Assembly: GCF_963921235.1 (NCBI RefSeq)
Contig: NC_086097.1
Span: forward strand, 83,392,001 to 83,456,000
Direction of reading: 5' to 3'
Source of the DNA: Mobula hypostoma
Lineage: Eukaryota
DNA: 64,000 bases
The notes beneath the pieces were generated by a model. That model worked only from the letters and a program-made list of their open reading frames with translations, had not been told where the DNA came from and searched no databases. Positions 40,721 to 63,933 of this stretch are shown here, in pieces. The position numbers and the translations under genes were made by a program. Positions within the stretch are counted from its first letter, which is position 1; the number at the start of each line of letters is the position of its first letter.

Positions 40721-42455
40721 AGTACTTTGGATCTGTCTTCACTAGGGAAGACACAAATAATCTCCCAGATGTAATAGTGGCCAGAGGACCTAGGGTAATG
40801 GAGGAACTGAAGGAGATTTACATTAGGCAGAAAATGGTGTTGGATAGACTGATGGGACTGAAGGCTGATAAATCCCCAGGGCCTGATGGTCTGCACCCCA
40901 GGGTACTTAAGGAGGTGGCTCTAGAAATCGTGGACGCATTGATAATTATTTTCCAATGTTCTATAGATTCAGGATCAGTTCCTGAGGACTGGAGGGTAGC
41001 TAATGTTATCCCACTTCTTAAGAAAGGTGGGAGAGAGAAAACAGGGAATTATCGACCAGTTAGCCTGACATCAGTGGTGGGGAAGATGCTGGAGTCAATT
41101 ATAAAGGATGAAATAGTGGCACATTTGGATAGCAATAACAGGATTGGTCTGAGTCAGCATGGATTTACAAAGGGGAAATCATGCTTGACTAATCTTCTGG
41201 AATTTTTTTGAGGATGTAACTATGAAAATGGACAAGGGAGAGCCAGTGGATGTAGTGTACCAGAACTTTCAGAAAGCCTTTGATAAGGTCCCACATAGGA
41301 GATTAGTGGGGAAAATTAGAGCACATGGTATTGGGGGTAGGGTACTGACATGGATAGAAAATTGGTTGGCAGACAAGAAACAAAGAGTAGGGATTAATGG
41401 GTCCTTTTCAGAATGGTAGGTGGTGTCTAGTGGGGTACCGCAAGGCTCGGTGCTGGGACCGCAGCTATTTACAATATACATGCATGATTAAAATGAAGGG
41501 ATTAAAAGTAACATTAGCAAATTTGCCGATGACACAAAGCTGGGTGGCAGTGTGAAATGTGCGGAGGATGTTGAGATAATGCAGGATGACTTGGGCAGGT
41601 TGGGTGAGTGGGCAGATGCATGGCAGATGCAGTTTAATGTGGATAAATGTGAGGTTATCCACTTTGGTGGCAAGAACAGGAAGGCAGATTACTATCTGAA
41701 TGGTGTTAAGTTAGGAAAAGGGGAAGGACAACGAGATCTGGGTGTCCTTCTTCATCAGTCGCTGAAAGTAAGCATGGAGGTACAGCAGGCAGTGAAGAAA
41801 GCTAATGGCATGTTGGCCTTCATAACAAGGGGAGTTGAGTATAGGAGCAAAGAGGTCCTTCTGCAGTTGTACAGGGCCCTAGTGAGACCACATCTGGAGT
41901 ATTGTGTACAGTTTTGGTCACCAAATTTGAGGAAGGACATTCTTGCTATTGAGGGAGTGCAGCGGAGGTTCACGAGGTTAATTCCCGGGATGGTGGGACT
42001 GTCATATGTTGAAAGATTGGAGCGACTGGGCTTGTATACACTGGAATTTAGAAGGATGAGAGGGGATCTGAGTGAAACATGTAAAATTATTAAGGGATTG
42101 GACACGCTAGAGGCAGGAAACATGTTCCTGATGTTGGGGGAGTCCAGAACCAGAGGCCACAATTTGAGAATAAGGGGTAGGCCATTTAGAACGGAGTTGA
42201 GGAAAAACTTTTTCACCCAGAGAGTTGTCGATCTGCGGAATGCTCTACCTCAGAAGGCTGTGGAGGCCAAGTCTCTGGATGCTTTCAAGAAAGAGTTAGA
42301 TAGAGCTCTTAATGATAGCGGAGTCAAGGGATATGGGGAGAAGGCAGGAACGGGGTACTGATTGTGGATGATCAGCCATGATCACAGTGAATGGCAGTGC
42401 TGGCTCAAAGGGCTGAATGGCCTACTCCTGCACCTATTGTCTATTGTCTATTGTC
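40721..42455 (+). mobile_element. Young CR1 LINE, 5'-truncated, near-intact RT region
   Basis: KSPGPDGLHPRVLKE, NYRPVSLTSVVGK, QHGFTKGKSCLTNLLEFF, FQKAFDKVPH, KFADDTKL; few stops; (TATTGTC)3 tail. Sits inside a minus-strand CR1 3' end (40585-40720 and 42456-42665). Confidence 0.95.
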
Positions 42456-55853: not shown

Positions 55854-56289
55854 ATCACCAACAATCTCTTCTCACCTCAGTGCAGGAAAGAGCATGGAGT
55901 ACACTAACCTGCATCCCCCTCCCGTAGAAAATTAATCTAAAAGGGTCAGAGCTGTGTAAATGTAGAGATTGTCACAGAACACTTCCATATACAGTATCTA
56001 TGTGTTCCATTGCCCTCTGTTATGTCTTGTACTTTCAAAACATTAGATGAATTCAAATGAAGATATGAGAATCTGGGAATGCAAGTCTGGCTTCAAGTTT
56101 ACTTTAGCGAGGTGCGTATGTATCACATGGGAGCACAATAATGTAATCCATAATGAATTATTATAATGAACAACAATGCTTAAACAAACAATATATATGT
56201 ATACAAGATTACTCAAATATTACTGAAATATTAAATACACAACACTCCTTCCTGCTTAGCTATAAGCTCCAACTCAATAGAGAATGCAC

Positions 56290-56975
56290 CTTTTTTTTAG
56301 ATTATGAGAACACTCAGTCCTCTTTTATTGTCATTTAGAAATGCATACTCACATTAAGAAATGATACAATGTTTCTCCGGAGTGATATCACAGAAAACAA
56401 GACAGACAAAAGACTAACACTGACAGAACCACATAATTATAACATATAGTTACAGCAGTGCAAGCAATCCCACAATTTGTTGAAGAACAGTCCATAGACA
56501 CAGTAAAAAAATAGTCTCAAAGTCCCCGAGTCGATCGACTCCCGACTCCCCGATAGCGGCGGCAAAAGGGAGAAACTCCCTGCCATAAACCTCCAGGCAC
56601 CACCAACTTGCCGATACCTTGGAAGCAACCGACCTTGAGTCCATCTGTCCGAAAACTCCGAGCTTCCGAGCAGCCTCTCCGGTACAACCTCCAGAGCGCC
56701 ATCCTCTGCCGAGTGCCTTCGACCTCTCCCTGGCCGCTGAAACACACAAAGCCGAGGGCTTTGAGGCCAACAGCTCCAAAGATTCCGGTTACCACACAGT
56801 AGCATGGGTAGCAAAGCAGTCATTTCAGAAGTTTTCCAGATGTTCCGCTAAGCACTCATGTCTGTCTCCATCAAATCAGAATTGTGCACGGCACCCTACT
56901 TGACAGATAACAGATATTCATCACCGGAGAGGCCGCGCGTGCTGCCGTCGCACCACCATCTTCTCTTTGAACTCT
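56290..56975 (-). mobile_element. Non-autonomous retroposon (about 690 bp) inserted in the Gypsy 3' UTR
   Basis: Colinear along its length with 63237-63933 (aagagaagatgg...ctgatttgatggagacag...aatgacaataaaagaggactg.gtgt.ctcataatcta). No convincing ORF. Confidence 0.75.
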
Positions 56976-57003
56976 CAACTATATACACAGTATAGTATAT
57001 AAT

Positions 57004-58183
57004 AGACAATAGGTGCAGGAGTAGACCATTTAGCCCTTCGAGCCAGCACTGCCATTCACTGTGATCATGGCTGATCATCCACTATCAGTATCCAGTTCCT
57101 GCCTTATCCCCATAACCTTTGATTCCGCTATCTTTAAGAGCTCTATCCATCTCTTTCTTGAAAGCATCCAGAGACTTGGCCTCCACAGCCTTCTGGGGCA
57201 GAGCATTCCATATACCCACTACTCTCTGGGTGAAAAAGTTTTTCCTCAACTCCGCTCTAAATGGCCTACCCCTTATTCTTAAACTGTGGCCTCTGGTTCT
57301 GGACTCACCCATCAACGGGAACGTGCTTCCTGCCTCCAGCGTGTCCAATCCCTTAATAATCTTATGTTTCAATAAGATCCCCTCTCAGCCTTCTAAATTC
57401 CAGAGTATACAAGCCCAGTCACTCCAATCTTTCGACATATGACAGCCCCGCCATCCTGGGAATTAACCTTTTGAACCTACGCTGCACTCCCTCAATAGCA
57501 AGAATGTCCTTCCTCAAATTTGGAGACCAAAACTGCACACAGTACTCCAGGTGTGGTCTCACCAGGGCCCTGTATAGCTGCAGAAGGACCTCTTTGCTCT
57601 TATACTCAATTCCCCTTGTTATGAAGGCCAGCATGCCATTAGCTTTCTTCACTGCCTGCTGTACTTGCATGCTTGCTTTCAGTGACTGATGTACAAGAAC
57701 ACCTAGATCTCATTGTACTTCCCCTTTTCCTAACTTGACTCCATTTAGATAATAATCTGCCTTCCTGTTCTTACCACCAAAGTGGATAACCTCACATTTA
57801 TCCACATTAAACTGCATCTGCCATGCATCTGCCCACTCACCCAACCTGCCCAAGTCATCCTGCATTATCTCAACATCCTCCTCACATTTCACACTGCCAC
57901 CCAGCTTTGTGTCATGGGCAAATTTGCTAATGTTACTTTTAATTCCCTCATCTAAATCATTAATATATATTGTAAGCAGCTGCGGTCCCAGCACTGAACC
58001 CTGCGGTACCCCACTGGTCACCACCTGCCATTCTGAAAGGGACCCATTAATCGCAATTCTTTGTTTTCTGTCAGCCAGCCAATTTTCAATCCATGTCAGT
58101 ACTCTACCCCCAATACCATGTGCCCTAATTTTGCCCACTAATCTCCTATGTGGGACTTTATCAAAGGCATTCTGAAAGTCCAG
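57004..58183 (-). mobile_element. Young CR1 LINE inserted in the Gypsy 3' UTR
   Basis: YLDFQNAFDKVPH..GVPQGSVLGPQL..; 9-bp TSD gtatataat at 56995-57003 and 58184-58192. Confidence 0.93.
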
Positions 58184-58432
58184 GTATATAATGCAGCTAC
58201 TATATACAGACACCCACAGCATAGTAACTTTTAAATTGTCCCATTCAGGCTTAAAGATTTAATTACTGTGGAGATTTCTTATTCTTGTAGAATAACATTT
58301 TTCCTGACAAGGGATCACTCTGCTTGGCAAGTGAGACTTGTGGTTCTGAAACTCTCTCAAGGGCCTCCTGCATGGTGGCTATAGGAGTTGATTCTGAAAC
58401 TGCAGGATATAGTCTGACAACTCTGGACACTT

Positions 58433-58979
58433 TTCTTCTTCTTCCTTTTCCTTATTCTAGTTTTATATCTTGATCCTTGGAAGGTACTTTCAGTTCACTG
58501 GAGTATTCTCTTATTAACGCTTCTATGCTCCCTTTAGGATCTGATCTCTTCTCTTGGTTTCCACATCCACAACATCATCTAACGAATCATCTGTTATCAT
58601 ATCTCCATTGACTCCTTTCTTTTCAGCCTTCCATTCATCCAGCAAGACAGTTGTCTTTGCATTTACTTTTACAAGCAACTTTTCATCTCCCACTTGAAGT
58701 TCATGCATTAATCTTAATGCACGCAGAGTAGATTCTGCTTGTTTATACTCACAAAAGCCAAATGCTTGCAACTTACCTGAAGCTCCTTGAACTCTCTTCC
58801 GGCTTAAAACCAAGCCACTTTTCACAAGAAACATAGCGGAAGATTTCTCAGATAAGTTGCCGGCGAAAACTGTTGTAGTTGGACCTACAGCTTTCATCAT
58901 TTTCACGCTTCCTCTGAGCAGCATGGTCCTTCCTTGGTCCAGTACGCTTTCCAACCAGAGGCACAGAGGTTGGCACTAA
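58433..58979 (-). pseudogene. RBM25: Processed (intronless) RBM25 fragment covering the RRM and flanks
   Basis: LVPTSVPLVGKRTGPRKDH..RENDESC/GPTTTVFAGNLSEK..GLVLSRKRVQGASGKLQAFGFCEYKQAESTLRALRLMHELQVGDEKLLVKVNAKT..LDEWKA..ETKRRDQILKGA/IEALIREYSSELKVPS matches vertebrate RBM25 as I recall it. Frameshifts and a small in-RRM deletion. Confidence 0.92.
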
Positions 58980-61169
58980 CCCCTGCTTGCCCTCTGTTTG
59001 ATATCAGTTCATGGGGCACAGCATAGAAACAGTTGTGGCATCATCCAGTACCGTTCTTAATTCGCTTTCATTTGGCTTCATCACAGGGCAACTAGTGGAT
59101 GGATCTCCAATCAAGATGTAGTTGTCTCAGTCAATAATACTCCCAGAATGCTGGTTCCTCCTGTTTTTAGCACATACAAGCTCAAAGTGGTGGTTGTATT
59201 TCACAGTTATGGATGTCTTTCGTACAGGAGTTATCTTTTCTCCAGTATAAGTTCTTAGCTGGATATCTGCAGGCTTCAGTTTAGTACCTTTGAAATGCCA
59301 CCCAAACTCATTTTGTGGAATGATTGAAACGGTTGAGCCAATGTCCAATTCTATTTTAATTAATTTGCCGTTTACTTCTGGCGTAGGCCATATTGCTTCT
59401 CTACTGTTAATTTTCAAAGGTTTCAAAGGTGCATTTAACGTCACAGAAATGAATACAATTTACATCCTGAAGTGTTTTTTCTTCACAACCATCTACAAAA
59501 ACACTAAATTTCAAGGCCACACAATCCTGTGTCACTCTCATCATTATCACAATGTTCATCAATAGCATGCAAATTAGTGTTCTTTTTGAAACAGCAACTT
59601 GACTTTTTAGCTTTTTCTCTTCCCTGTGCAGACCATTTACTTTTTTCTACCCGGCATGCTGTTTGTACGTGTTGCACTTTCTGCAAGTTTTGCCTTTAAA
59701 TCTCCATTTGTTTTGTGTATGTGAGCCTCTTACACAACAGTAATGCAATTTCAAACAAGGGAAAATCTGCAAATGCTGGAAATCCAAGCAACACAATTTG
59801 TTCGGCCAGGATGGTTACTATCTAAATGCTACAATTTTGTTCATGTTCACTTTCATTTCTGACTGCAACTCATTTGTCTCTGTAGTTTCCATTGAAACAG
59901 AGATTTCCACTGCTCTTTTAAATGCATGAGGTGCTTCAGATGGGAGCTGTTTTTGAATGCTTTCTATTAAGATTCCACAAACTAAACAATCTCTTGGTGT
60001 ACTATTAAGATCATTACCGAACTGGCAATGCTCAGGAAATCTCTTCATTTCAGCCATGTACGCTGAATTGGACTCCCCTTCCTTTTGATTCCACATATGA
60101 AACCTAAAGCGTTCTGCAATCAATGATGGCTTTGGTTCTAAGTGTTCCTGCCTCACTCTTACAATAGTAACAAATCTCATTTCTGATAGTTTGGTTGGAG
60201 TCAAACTTTGAAGCAAACCGTATGCCTTTAAATCCACTGCACTTAGCAAAATTTCTACCTGCTTCTCATTGGCTATTTGATTTGCTTCAAAATACTATTC
60301 CAATAGTTCAGTATACATAAGCCAATCACCCATTGTGTAATCTAACTCATCAATTTTTCCGCCGTAGCCAGCCATTTCTGTTCCTTTTTTTATGACTATT
60401 AACAACCAGTACTCACTCTTTATGAAACTGTGAGTTCTTCCATTTTCTGACCTTTTTTTTAACTTGATTGTGTCTTCCCTTCCAAAGAACATGTGCCTTT
60501 TGTAACGCGACTATTCTTCGCTGCGCTTTATTTTATATTGAATGTCTCACTGTACTTTAACAGGTCGGTAGCCGTGTCAGGTTCATTTTTAAAATATCTT
60601 GTCAGCAAGATTGTGTTTTGTAACTTCAAAACATTACACTAATTCAAAGGAAGATACGGGAGTCTGGGAATGCAGGTCTACCTTCAAGTTTACTCTAGCA
60701 AGGTGTGCATGTATCACGTGGTGTACTGCATGTAATTCATGTATATACACATAGCCTGTAATAAATTACTTAAATGAACAAAAATGCTTAATCAACCGAT
60801 ATATATACAAGAATACTCAAATATTATTGAAATACTAAATGCACAACACCCTCCCTACTGGGAATGGTGACCTAGGAAATACAACTGCCATAAGTAGAGC
60901 AGTGGAATTAGTTTCAACCAATAAACTTCGCAGTTTAGCTGCTATATCGTACAGTTTAAAACTCATTAAAATGGAAGAGACATCAGCTTTTGTAAAATGG
61001 AGCACAGATTTACCAATATGGCATTTTTTTCTTCCATTTAAGTGGTAATTTATGCATGCACATAAATTGGTAACTCTTTCTTTGCATGAATAAAACTCCT
61101 GGAAGTGAGAACTTCCTTGTAGAGTTATACTCGCCCCTGTGGGACTGGATGAGCCCAGAGCTGCTGGAA

Positions 61170-62010
61170 ATGTACAAAACCGTGCTTTGGCTAGCATGTC
61201 AGACCCTATGTGGAATGGCATAACCACCCTCATCAACATACAGAAGGAGGAGAGGGATGACATCAGAAATTGGAGACCTATTTCACTGTTGAATGTGAAT
61301 TATTAGATTATGAAGACACGCAGTCCTCTTTTATTGTCATTTAGTAATGCATGCATTAAGAAATGATACAATATTTGATATAATAGCCTGTTCAAGGCGA
61401 TCACCAAACAGGTCAAGATTGCTCTGTGCTACACCAGGCAGAAAAAAAATCTCTTGACAGCTTTACGTTACTCAGGTATACAATCACCTACAGGCAGGAC
61501 AGAGGGTTAGATACCTGCCTGGTCAGCTTAGATAAGGAAAAGACCTTCAACACGTGTACAGTGGGTTTTGGGAAGGTGATCAAATATTGAATCCAACTGC
61601 TTTGCATAGATCTGCAATGGAGTCCAAATTAATGTGTGGGAGAGAGAGCTTCCACATCAAGTCTGGGGTTAGGCAGGGTTGCCCACTCTCCCTTATCTTG
61701 TTTGCATGCGACATAGAGCTCTATGCAGAATCCACCAGAAAAGATGAGGGCTGATGTTACCAGACAGTGGACACACACAAGTTAAGACCTCCCTGTACAC
61801 AAACAATGTCACTATCTCCTGCCCAGATCCATGACTGATTTGCTGACTGATCAGCATATGAGACCGGTTTGAGTTGGCATTAGGGGTCAAGGTCAACCAC
61901 AGGAAAAGCAAGGCAATACTCTTTGGTAACTGGACCAAGAATTCCAATCTCCCTTTCACTGTCAGGTCTGACTACACCAAAAGTGCTGGGGATCTGGTTC
62001 AGAGGGGCTC
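61170..62010 (+). mobile_element. Degenerate Tx1/L1-clade RT fragment
   Basis: GITTLI..ERDDIRNWRPISLLNVNY, SLDKEKTFN, SGVRQGCPLSLILF, GVKVNHRKSKAILFG. Confidence 0.75.
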
Positions 62011-63236: not shown

Positions 63237-63933
63237 CTGTAAGAGAAGATGGCCGTGCGACGCAGCACACGTGGCCTCTCCGAATTGATATCGTATTTGT
63301 GAAGTAGGATGCCATGCACAATCCTGATTTGATGGAGACAGCCGTGAGAAACACGGAGGAACATCTGGAGAAACTTCTGAAATGCCTGCTTCGCTGCTGC
63401 TGCTACTGTGCAAATCGAGAATCTCCAGAGGGGAAGGCCCCAAATCCTCGGCTTTGCCTATTGCCTGTTGCCAGGGCCGGGGTCGAAGCGCTCAACAGAG
63501 ATGGTGCTCGGTGCTTGGTGTCGGAGAGCTGGGCAAAGGCTCGAAGTTTTCCGACGGACTCGGAGTCGGACTGTGGTCGGGTGCTTCCAGGATGCTGCAT
63601 CGGCAAGTTTGTGGTGCTGGAAGCTCATGGTAGGAAGAGTTTTCTTCCTTCAACCATCTGCGTGAGATAATGGGACTTTCAAGAGACTTAGAAACTTTTT
63701 TTACCGTGCCCATGGTCTGTTCTTCTATCAAGTTATGGTATTGCTTGCACTGTTGTAACTATATGTTATAATTATGTGGTTTTTGTCAGCTTTTTTTAGT
63801 CTTGGTTTGTCTTGTGTTTCTGTGATATCATTCTGGAGGAACATTGTATCATTTCTTAATGCATGCATTACTAAATGACAATAAAAGAGGACTGTGTGTC
63901 CTCATAATCTAATCTAATCTAATCTAATCTAAT
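63237..63933 (+). mobile_element. Non-autonomous retroposon with (TCTAA)n tail, same family as 56290-56975
   Basis: Starts aagagaagatggc and ends aataaaagaggactgtgtgtcctca followed by about five TCTAA units. A third 3' fragment lies at 61303-61371 (minus). Confidence 0.78.

What the first reader, a model, noticed from the sequence alone, without database searches (positions are those of the whole stretch)
56013..60853. Gypsy provirus that has captured a spliced host mRNA (RBM25) in place of its pol gene
Seen in sequence, on the minus strand: 5' LTR, gag, protease, RBM25 cDNA (58979-58433), pol C-terminal tail ending at about 58250, 3' UTR, PPT, 3' LTR, bounded by a perfect CCCTC duplication. 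RT, RNase H and most of integrase are absent exactly where RBM25 sits. The RBM25 piece is sense to the element, uninterrupted by introns, an internal part of the CDS only, and has no poly(A) tail or TSD of its own. Known: LINE-made processed pseudogenes usually keep the mRNA 3' end, poly(A) and a TSD, whereas LTR-mediated retroposition replaces internal sequence by RT template switching. Inference: a non-autonomous chimeric LTR element, possibly an amplified family, that transduced the RRM of a splicing factor.
Basis: partly seen in the sequence, partly recalled or inferred. Interest (0 to 1): 0.92.

Follow-up and report, generated by a model that had tools for sequence, protein, structure and literature searches.

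The report
Retrotransposon family carrying captured RBM25 exons
This is an old, dead copy of a jumping-gene family whose own polymerase genes were replaced by a spliced piece of the host splicing-factor gene RBM25, and the hybrid then multiplied to over a thousand copies in this genome.

Summary
On the minus strand, 60853-56013 is an LTR element bounded by a perfect 5-bp duplication: LTR, gag, protease, RBM25 cDNA, the last ~60 codons of pol, PPT, LTR. RT, RNase H and integrase are absent.

The RBM25 piece matches five exons of the parental gene, which lies 16 Mb away on the same contig. All four introns are missing. Present-day RNA contigs show three of the four exon joints.

- The piece starts at 59030, not 58979, exactly at the first base of a 48-nt exon.
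- The "3' UTR" is mostly two later repeat insertions: a LINE fragment with its own 9-bp duplication, and a second repeat.

The chimera is an amplified family. Its 5' junction 24-mer occurs 1,200 times (control 0), and copies have different target-site duplications. Pol-bearing relatives sharing protease, tail and LTR exist.

A longer form (~234 copies) also carries RBM25 exons E and F. The window's short form looks like a microhomology deletion of it.

Best mechanism: oncogene-style transduction. The 5' junction arose by read-through and splicing, the 3' junction by template switching.

This is a known kind (LTR-mediated retroposition) at unusual scale. The same scan had already found this family elsewhere in the genome (e1-7790852). 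Interest is moderate.

The parts
60849..60853 (-). 5' target-site duplication GAGGG (CCCTC on the plus strand)
   Evidence: Read from the sequence. It is identical to 56013-56017.
60609..60848 (-). 5' LTR, 240 nt. It starts TG; the terminal CA has mutated to TC.
   Evidence: Direct repeat with the 3' LTR. Global alignment gives 83.0% identity, K=0.193.
59507..60375 (-). gag, degenerate, with in-frame stops. It starts MAGYGGKIDE and has a zinc-knuckle remnant.
   Evidence: tblastn of P0122 residues 1-281 gives 40-53% identity. A gag ORF of copy L022 finds P0122 at E=4e-33.
59031..59405 (-). Protease (59405-59098, active site DIGS) and the linker up to the first codons of the RT region (..VLDDATT).
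   Evidence: tblastn of P0122 residues 288-392. Pol-bearing relatives read DDATTVFEDGIGKLK here.
58982..59030 (-). RBM25 'up' exon, 48 nt in the parent (C1:99832633-99832586). The 5' junction lies at its first base.
   Evidence: blastn to the parental locus. The exon is flanked by ag|..|gt. The joint to exon A is seen in RNA contigs of 4 of 4 runs.
58433..58981 (-). RBM25 exons A-D joined without introns (58979-58830, 58823-58765, 58766-58603, 58603-58432). They hold the whole RRM. The copy has a private deletion at the A/B joint, one frameshift and stops.
   Evidence: blastn at 82-92% identity to four exons separated by introns of 1.7-4.8 kb. Identified as RBM25. RRM_1 is matched in full in better-kept copies.
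58184..58432 (-). Tail: the last ~60 codons of pol (integrase C-terminal tail; the position homologous to the family stop is 58253-58251) and the start of the 3' untranslated part.
   Evidence: The same tail is seen in 19 of 20 copies and in the pol-bearing relative L059. The end of the L023 ORF matches the last 17 residues of P0122, E=0.002.
57004..58183 (-). Later insertion 1: a 5'-truncated LINE (RT C-terminal part and 3' end) with the 9-bp duplication ATTATATAC at 58192-58184 and 57003-56995.
   Evidence: RVT_1 E=4.5e-20. Absent at this place in 20 of 20 other copies. Copies 95-96% identical occur elsewhere.
56971..57003 (-). The element's own 3' untranslated segment, lying between the two insertions.
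   Evidence: Matches 84-100% in 7 other copies and in L059, directly after their tails.
56286..56970 (-). Later insertion 2: an interspersed repeat ending in AATAAA and an A-run. No clear duplication was seen.
   Evidence: Absent at this place in the other copies. Other copies of the repeat lie in the window at 63241-63912 and 61300-61376.
56245..56285 (-). The element's own pre-LTR segment with a polypurine tract (..AGCAGGAAGGAG).
   Evidence: 83-96% identical in 17 of 20 copies, directly before their 3' LTR.
56018..56244 (-). 3' LTR, 227 nt, TG..CA.
56013..56017 (-). 3' target-site duplication GAGGG.

Best explanation
The window holds one decayed copy of a non-autonomous Ty3/Gypsy-type LTR retrotransposon family. 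In this family about 2.5 kb of pol (RT, RNase H, integrase) has been replaced by part of a spliced mRNA of the host gene RBM25.

Shown here:
- The insert is exon-to-exon RBM25 cDNA, sense to the element.
- The family shares one 5' junction.
- It transposed as a unit to at least about 1,200 places, with integrase-type 5-bp duplications.
- Pol-bearing relatives exist that could have supplied RT and integrase in trans.

Inferred mechanism:
1. A pol-bearing element sat in sense orientation in the RBM25 intron upstream of the 48-nt exon.
2. A read-through transcript from its 5' LTR was spliced from a cryptic GT at the protease/RT boundary (..ACAACT|GT..) to that exon's acceptor, and then through the normal downstream exons.
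3. This RNA, which still carried the 5' packaging region, was co-packaged with a normal element RNA.
4. During reverse transcription, one switch between the purine-rich RBM25 region and the integrase-tail region restored the PPT and 3' LTR. This produced the long form (exons up-A-B-C-D-E-F).
5. A later deletion between two ~8-9-nt purine repeats (..GAAAAGAAAG near the end of exon D and ..CCAGAAGAAAG in the tail) produced the short form seen in the window.
6. After insertion this copy decayed (LTR K~0.19) and was hit by two other repeats.
For: The insert is spliced RBM25 cDNA:
- It matches five exons of the parental gene at C1:99832633-99819254, with canonical ag/gt flanks and no intron sequence.
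- 21 copies are 85.2-90.1% identical to the joined exons.
- The exon joints C-B, B-A and A-up are present in RNA contigs of 4 of 4 runs.

It is one family that was mobile as a unit:
- 40 of 40 scored genome hits cover the piece at 79-83% identity, out of 2,854 first-look candidates.
- 19 of 20 fetched copies have the protease directly upstream and 19 of 20 have the tail downstream.
- The junction 24-mer gives 1,200 matches against 0 for the control.
- Of 8 copies readable at both ends, the 5-bp duplications differ between copies and match 5/5 in 3, 4/5 in 3 and 3/5 in 2 (read by eye).

Pol is replaced rather than interrupted:
- 5 loci share the protease at 70-82% DNA identity and then continue into RT.
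- L059 also shares the tail (78-82%), the pre-LTR segment (90%) and the LTR (77-82%).
- The related polyprotein P0122 has PR-RVT_1-RNaseH-Integrase domains between the two breakpoints.

The 5' junction looks spliced:
- In 11 of 21 copies the alignment starts at base 1 of the exon, and in 16 of 21 within the first 3 bases.
- Element and exon share only GT there.
- My own estimate of the chance of landing on an exon start is about 3/123.

The window's 3' junction looks like a deletion:
- L035 carries exons E (90% identity) and F as well, and its tail starts at least ~45 nt further upstream and contains the purine motif. L036 and L037 are intermediate.
- An exon-E 24-mer gives 235 matches (control 3), of which 1 is the parent.
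- Several of these lie 540-680 nt from exact 5'-junction matches on the same strand.

Decay after insertion was neutral: private differences are 77% nonsynonymous and spread evenly over codon positions.
Against: - No remnant of a source provirus or solo LTR was found in the intron upstream of the 48-nt exon. The only LTR in the 80 kb searched lies 36 kb upstream of the first coding exon found, in the opposite orientation.
- The proposed donor (ACT|GTATTC or ACA|GTGTTC) matches the 5' splice-site consensus only at GTR. This is my own reading; no splice-site scoring was run.
- The microhomology at the short-form junction, and the longer tail of the long form, each rest on one decayed copy (L059 and L035).
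- The primary 3' junction could not be placed closer than about 20 nt.
- No full-length pol-bearing copy was read.
- The 1,341 pol-type junction matches may include several related Gypsy subfamilies.
Confidence: 0.85

Rival explanations
1. Double template switch (the model of Tan et al. 2016). A mature RBM25 mRNA was packaged in a virus-like particle, and RT switched from element RNA to the mRNA and back. Under this reading both junctions are switches, and the 5' one falls on an exon start by chance.
For: This is the mechanism documented for LTR-mediated retrocopies. There, 25 of 29 junctions showed microsimilarity with a median of 6 bp (PMC5131818, passages read). The window's 3' junction shows ~8-9 nt of shared purines. 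No source provirus is left in the RBM25 intron.
Against: The 5' junction shares only GT and lies exactly at the first base of an exon in all informative copies. In the mature mRNA that exon is preceded by a 30-nt exon, none of which is in the chimera.
Confidence: 0.3
2. An ordinary LINE-made processed pseudogene of RBM25 landed inside a Gypsy element that then amplified, or landed there independently many times.
For: LINEs are active here. A LINE fragment with its own duplication sits in this very copy.
Against: - The insert is an internal part of the mRNA with no 3' end, no poly(A) and no duplication of its own.
- It replaces about 2.5 kb of pol rather than interrupting it.
- The same two junctions recur in the copies.
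- The LINE insertion is private to this copy.
Confidence: 0.02
3. The short and long forms are two independent 3' recombination products of one persistent read-through RNA, rather than parent and deletion derivative.
For: Both forms share the same 5' junction. Repeated 3' switches from one chimeric RNA are expected under the transduction model.
Against: The long form contains both purine motifs between which the short form is deleted, so a single deletion explains the short form. The intermediate forms L036 and L037 suggest repeated deletions within a purine-rich stretch.
Confidence: 0.15

Closest known systems
LTR-mediated retrocopies / 'pseudo-LTR retrotransposons' (Tan et al. 2016, Genome Res, PMC5131818; abstract and passages read)
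   Same: A partial, intronless host mRNA replaces internal ORF sequence of an LTR element. Both LTRs are kept. There is microsimilarity at a fusion point. The chimera can retropose again.
   Different: The cases there are young and have one or a few insertion sites. Here there are at least ~1,200 old copies. The 5' junction sits on an exon boundary with only 2 nt shared. Long and short structural forms exist.
Acute transforming retroviruses (oncogene capture through read-through transcription, splicing between viral and cellular splice sites, and recombination). PMC4276931, passages read. The one-switch model of Swain and Coffin 1992 is recalled and is cited within PMC5131818.
   Same: Sense-oriented host exons are joined to gag-pro sequence at a host exon acceptor. 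Replicative genes are lost. The element depends on a helper.
   Different: This is a germline Gypsy retrotransposon, not an infectious retrovirus. No growth advantage for the cell is implied. It spread within a genome to about 10^3 copies.
Crocodilian ERVs that captured KIT-ligand and nectin3 mRNAs (Chong et al. 2014, PMC4299795; abstract and passages read)
   Same: A vertebrate endogenous LTR element carries a captured host mRNA, in one case at the expense of a viral gene, and was propagated by retrotransposition.
   Different: Those are retroviruses carrying whole ORFs. Six nectin3 insertions are reported and there is evidence of purifying selection. Here a Gypsy element carries an internal CDS fragment in over a thousand decayed copies.
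Maize Bs1 (known to me only as cited in PMC5131818; the original papers were not read)
   Same: An LTR retroelement whose internal region consists of captured cellular gene fragments.
   Different: It is a plant element with fragments of three genes. Its low copy number is recalled, not checked.

Membership tests
LTR-mediated retrocopy (Tan et al. 2016) | The host-derived insert lacks the parental introns. | tested here: met
   Five exons and four joints. Parental introns of 1.7-4.8 kb are absent. Three of the four joints are seen in RNA contigs.
LTR-mediated retrocopy (Tan et al. 2016) | The insert replaces internal ORF sequence of one LTR element, so the flanks are discontinuous rather than a simple interruption. 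| tested here: met
   Relatives continue from the protease into RT at the breakpoint. The tail equals the pol C-terminal end. The domains between the breakpoints are RVT_1, RNase H and integrase.
LTR-mediated retrocopy (Tan et al. 2016) | Both LTRs are present, with a target-site duplication made by integrase. | tested here: met
LTR-mediated retrocopy (Tan et al. 2016) | Microsimilarity at the fusion points. | tested here: inconclusive
   The short-form 3' junction shows ~8-9 nt (one pol-bearing copy). The 5' junction shows only GT. The primary 3' junction of the long form is not resolved.
Ty3/Gypsy (Metaviridae) LTR retrotransposon | Domain order gag-PR-RT-RNaseH-IN, with Gypsy-type RT_RNaseH and Integrase_H2C2 domains. 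| tested here: met
   Met for the closest full polyprotein, P0122 (57% identity to the family gag; domains). In this genome only the PR-to-RT continuity was read.
Ty3/Gypsy (Metaviridae) LTR retrotransposon | Placement of the RT within the Gypsy clade by phylogeny, and a tRNA primer-binding site. | not tested
   No RT tree was built and the PBS was not identified.
Retroviral-type transduction (read-through, splice, one switch) | The 5' junction joins element sequence to a host exon acceptor, with a GT at the element breakpoint. | tested here: met
   The junction lies at exon base 1. The element reads ACT|GTATTC or ACA|GTGTTC at the breakpoint. Donor strength was not scored.
Retroviral-type transduction (read-through, splice, one switch) | A source provirus lies upstream of the captured exons, in sense orientation, in the parental gene. 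| tested here: not met
   No LTR, gag, protease or tail match in C1:99832634-99840519. An insertion that was never fixed would leave no trace, so this is weak evidence.
LINE-made processed pseudogene | mRNA 3' end, poly(A) tail and a duplication flanking the retrocopy. | tested here: not met
   None of the three is present.

The most novel reading that the evidence does not exclude
The RBM25 RRM was not just cargo. The active lineages kept one continuous Gag-protease-RRM-integrase-tail reading frame that ends at the native pol stop, and this helped the hybrid multiply. It could have done so through the fused RNA-binding domain favouring packaging of its own RNA, or by keeping normal translation termination and RNA stability. 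The outcome was a defective element about as abundant as its pol-bearing relatives.

Hints:
- Both junctions of the short form are in frame, which has a 1 in 9 chance. Open frames run from the protease into RBM25 in L022, L039 and L037, and from RBM25 to the pol end in L023.
- The full RRM is retained.
- Mid-frequency differences between copies are less often nonsynonymous than private ones (64% against 77%, Fisher p=0.011).
- There are 1,200 chimeric junction matches against 1,341 pol-type ones.

Caveat: the 22:5 synonymous excess at sites where most copies differ from the parent can be explained by constraint on the parental gene alone.
Probability: 0.12. Interest if true: 0.8.

Novelty: new member of a known kind. 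Interest (0 to 1): 0.55.

Why it matters
Capture of host mRNA by LTR elements is documented, but mostly as single or few-copy events. This family offers several things those cases do not:

- It is a vertebrate case in which the hybrid became a successful non-autonomous family of about 10^3 copies.
- The parental gene is still present for comparison.
- The 5' junction on an exon boundary points to the read-through-and-splice route known from oncogene capture.
- Long and short forms record later remodelling.

Together these give a natural system for asking how transducing elements arise and whether captured domains affect their spread.

There is also a practical point for annotation. About a thousand RBM25-like RRM fragments in this genome are repeats, not genes.

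Tried and rejected
Searches for the pol-bearing partner:
- I searched the genome with the RT region of P0122 (50,274 candidates, 95 scored). L040 and 12 upstream stretches (L041-L052) taken from those hits share at most short matches of ~70-80% DNA identity with the family's protease, LTR or tail. They are other Gypsy families.
- The partner was then found with a junction pattern.
- L060, a 701-nt stretch fetched at the predicted integrase end of one relative, matched nothing.
No full pol-bearing copy was therefore read, and the exact size of the replaced segment rests on P0122 (about residues 428-1254).

Negative or uninformative searches:
- The tail has no match in the RBM25 locus, so it is not RBM25 intron or a further exon.
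- The look-up of sequencing runs listed no holder on record as RNA. The four runs laid are RNA only by guess, although their contigs skip the introns at gt..ag.
- The search of solved structures gave only generic RRM proteins.
- Pfam finds nothing in the window's own gag and protease frames at E<=0.1.
- The search of earlier findings by sequence found nothing.

Literature: no paper in the held library links RBM25 with LTR retrotransposons in this sense (6 papers, judged irrelevant from titles and abstract starts). Searches found no description of this family.

Not resolved: whether the long form is in frame. L035 has private indels.


Full report
**Anatomy**

Read on the minus strand, window 60853-56013 is an LTR element bounded by a perfect 5-bp duplication. 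GAGGG (CCCTC on the plus strand) lies at 60853-60849 and at 56017-56013.

- The LTRs (60848-60609 and 56244-56018) are 83.0% identical over 223 aligned bases, JC K=0.193. The insertion is therefore old.
- gag (60375-59507) and protease (59405-59098) align to a 1319-aa polyprotein, P0122, at 40-53% identity with in-frame stops.
- P0122 was found with the gag frame of another copy (E=4e-33, 57% identity).
- P0122 carries aspartyl protease, RVT_1, RT_RNaseH, Integrase_H2C2 and rve domains in the Gypsy order.

**The RBM25 piece**

The 150-aa open frame at 58523-58975 found 330 proteins at E<=0.001. The named ones among the top hits are RBM25 of fishes and amphibians at 60-68% identity.

The window lies at C1:83392001-83456000 of a 3.48-Gb assembly. 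Searching that genome with the C-terminal part of a gar RBM25 placed the parental gene on the same contig at about C1:99.79-99.84 Mb, minus strand.

Window 59030-58432 then aligns to five separate stretches of that locus at 80-92% identity. Each stretch is flanked by ag and gt.

| Exon | Parental coordinates (C1) | Length |
|---|---|---|
| up | 99832633-99832586 | 48 nt |
| A | 99829160-99828990 | 171 nt |
| B | 99827251-99827194 | 58 nt |
| C | 99824415-99824255 | 161 nt |
| D | 99819430-99819254 | 177 nt |

- The four introns, 1.7 to 4.8 kb long, are absent from the window.
- Contigs of four public runs laid on the parental locus skip the same introns. The joints C-B, B-A and A-up appear in 4 of 4 runs with gt..ag ends.
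- The runs are RNA only by guess, but the joints show that these exons, including the 48-nt one, are spliced together today.
- The mRNA continues upstream into a 30-nt exon at C1:99837505-99837476. None of that exon is in the chimera.
- The insert is sense to the element, is an internal part of the CDS, and has no poly(A) and no duplication of its own.
- It holds the whole RRM. RRM_1 is matched over profile positions 1-67 of 70 at 34.8 bits in copy L022.

1. The piece starts 51 nt further upstream than stated.
2. The stretch called 3' UTR is mostly foreign.
   - 58183-57004 is a 5'-truncated LINE (RVT_1 E=4.5e-20) flanked by a 9-bp duplication, ATTATATAC.
   - 56970-56286 is another interspersed repeat ending in an A-run.
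   - Between and after them lie 33 and 41 nt of the element's own 3' region.
   - In 20 other copies the tail runs into the pre-LTR segment without either insertion. L032 has a repeat of the second kind nearby in the opposite orientation, which is a separate event.
3. The window copy has a private deletion at the exon A/B joint.

**A family, mobile as a unit**

- The 547-nt piece has 2,854 first-look candidates in the genome. All 40 scored cover it at 79-83% identity.
- I fetched 20 of these, chosen from the top of that list, so they are biased towards copies like the window's. 19 have the protease directly upstream, 19 have the tail downstream, and most have LTRs.
- All 21 copies (the 20 plus the window) are 85.2-90.1% identical to the joined parental exons, with a median of 88.4%. 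They are a median 85.1% identical to each other.
- The 24-mer across the 5' junction has 1,200 matches with up to 3 mismatches, spread over many contigs. The reversed control has 0.
- Twelve copies were inspected for duplications. Two could not be read at one end and two lacked a 3' LTR. Of the remaining eight, the 5-bp duplications are all different from each other and from the window's. They match 5/5 in three (GTGGG, CATTG, CCCAC), 4/5 in three and 3/5 in two (read by eye).
- An earlier finding of this scan (e1-7790852) describes another copy 77.6 Mb away. It reports copies in runs of three related organisms, which I did not test.

**Pol-bearing relatives**

- A pattern for the protease end followed by the expected RT start gave 6 matches (control 0).
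- Five of the six share the protease at 70-82% DNA identity and then read DDATTVFEDGIGKLK.. into RT. The sixth is a chimeric copy.
- One relative, L059, also shares the tail (78-82%), the pre-LTR segment (90%) and the LTR (77-82%). It is itself broken by a LINE and a SINE and lacks RNase H and integrase.
- The pol-type junction 24-mer has 1,341 matches (control 0). This count may include related subfamilies.
- The tail ends like P0122: 10 of the last 17 residues are identical, E=0.002.
- By P0122 numbering, about residues 428-1254 are replaced. That is all of RT, RNase H and the integrase core.

**Junctions and mechanism**

The 5' junction:
- It reads ..GATGATGCCACAACT|GTCTCCATG...
- The alignment to the parental cDNA starts at base 1 of the 48-nt exon in 11 of 21 copies, and within the first three bases in 16 of 21.
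- Element (..ACAACT GTATTC.. or ..ACAACA GTGTTC..) and exon share only GT.
- I estimate the chance that a random breakpoint falls on an exon start, allowing this 2-nt ambiguity, at about 3 in 123.
- I therefore favour splicing of a read-through transcript, from a cryptic GT in the element to the exon's acceptor. This is the route described for oncogene capture (PMC4276931, passages).
- Against this, the donor is weak by eye, and no provirus or solo LTR remains in the intron.

The window's 3' junction:
- It lies 5 nt before the end of exon D, in a purine run.
- L059 has CCAGAAGAAAG just upstream of the point where the short-form tail begins, and exon D ends ..GAAAAGAAAG|AGGAG. The two share about 8-9 nt.

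The long form:
- Three of the 21 copies have extra sequence at the 3' junction.
- L035 continues through exon E (C1:99813187-99813118, 90% identity) and exon F (C1:99810677-99810534, 79%).
- L035's element tail starts at least ~45 nt further upstream and contains the purine motif.
- L036 and L037 hold part of exon F.
- An exon-E 24-mer has 235 matches (control 3), one being the parent.
- Several of these lie 540-680 nt downstream of exact 5'-junction matches on the same strand.
- The simplest reading is one capture that produced the long form, followed by deletions between purine repeats that produced the short form found in the window.
- The primary 3' junction lies in the Arg/Glu-rich part of RBM25 and could not be placed to the base from single decayed copies.

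**Selection**

- Differences from the parent seen in only one or two copies are 77% nonsynonymous (415:121) and spread evenly over codon positions. This fits neutral decay.
- Sites where at least 60% of copies differ from the parent are 22 synonymous to 5 nonsynonymous, with 22 of 27 at third positions (p=4e-7). Constraint on the parental gene since the capture explains this without any selection on the element.
- Mid-frequency differences are 64% nonsynonymous (51:29; Fisher p=0.011 against the private class). This is a weak hint that recurrent CpG changes could also produce.
- Both short-form junctions are in frame. Open frames of 235-284 aa run from the protease through the 48-nt exon into RBM25 in L022, L039 and L037. 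A 202-aa frame in L023 runs from RBM25 to the native pol end.
- By chance that is 1 in 9. It keeps open the possibility that a continuous fusion frame mattered.

**Comparison and verdict**

This is LTR-mediated retroposition in the sense of Tan et al. 2016 (PMC5131818), with the further retroposition cycles they predicted.

- It stands out for its scale, for the exon-boundary 5' junction and for its structural forms.
- Vertebrate precedents with few copies exist in crocodilian ERVs (PMC4299795).
- I found no description of this family in the held library. Repeat databases could not be searched.
- I rate it a new member of a known kind, of moderate interest.

Noticed in passing
window 58183-57004 (also 19627-18914 and 41258-42441): A young LINE family. 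The fragment inserted in the element has copies 91-96% identical elsewhere in the window, and one 95% identical in L023. It is much younger than the LTR element it interrupts.
   Followed up: partly
window 56970-56286, 63241-63912, 61300-61376: An unclassified interspersed repeat of about 680 nt with a GC-rich 5' part, AATAAA and a short A-run. The copies are 75-91% alike.
   Followed up: no
window 59795-59752 (inside gag); also 38160-38117 and 44719-44676: A 44-nt segment of the gag region recurs at 84-93% identity in both orientations at many unrelated places, including the RBM25 locus and flanks of other copies. It looks like a piece of a small, separate repeat.
   Followed up: no
parental RBM25 locus, C1:99837505-99837476 and C1:99832633-99832586 (L015/L014): Two micro-exons of 30 and 48 nt lie between the proline-rich first coding exon found and the exon that precedes the RRM. 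Both are used in the RNA contigs. They have no counterpart in the two bony-fish RBM25 proteins compared (P0102, P0003).
   Followed up: partly
L036 (C96:22419500-22427100), about 4708-3546: One copy carries a tandem internal duplication: RBM25 piece, protease end, RBM25 piece.
   Followed up: no
L059 1-1097 (C22:50081500-50082596): A tandem array with a period of about 80 nt abuts the 5'-truncated pol-bearing relative.
   Followed up: no
C1:99876649-99876883: A solo LTR of the same family (69-75% identical) lies about 36 kb upstream of the first RBM25 coding exon found, in the orientation opposite to the gene.
   Followed up: no
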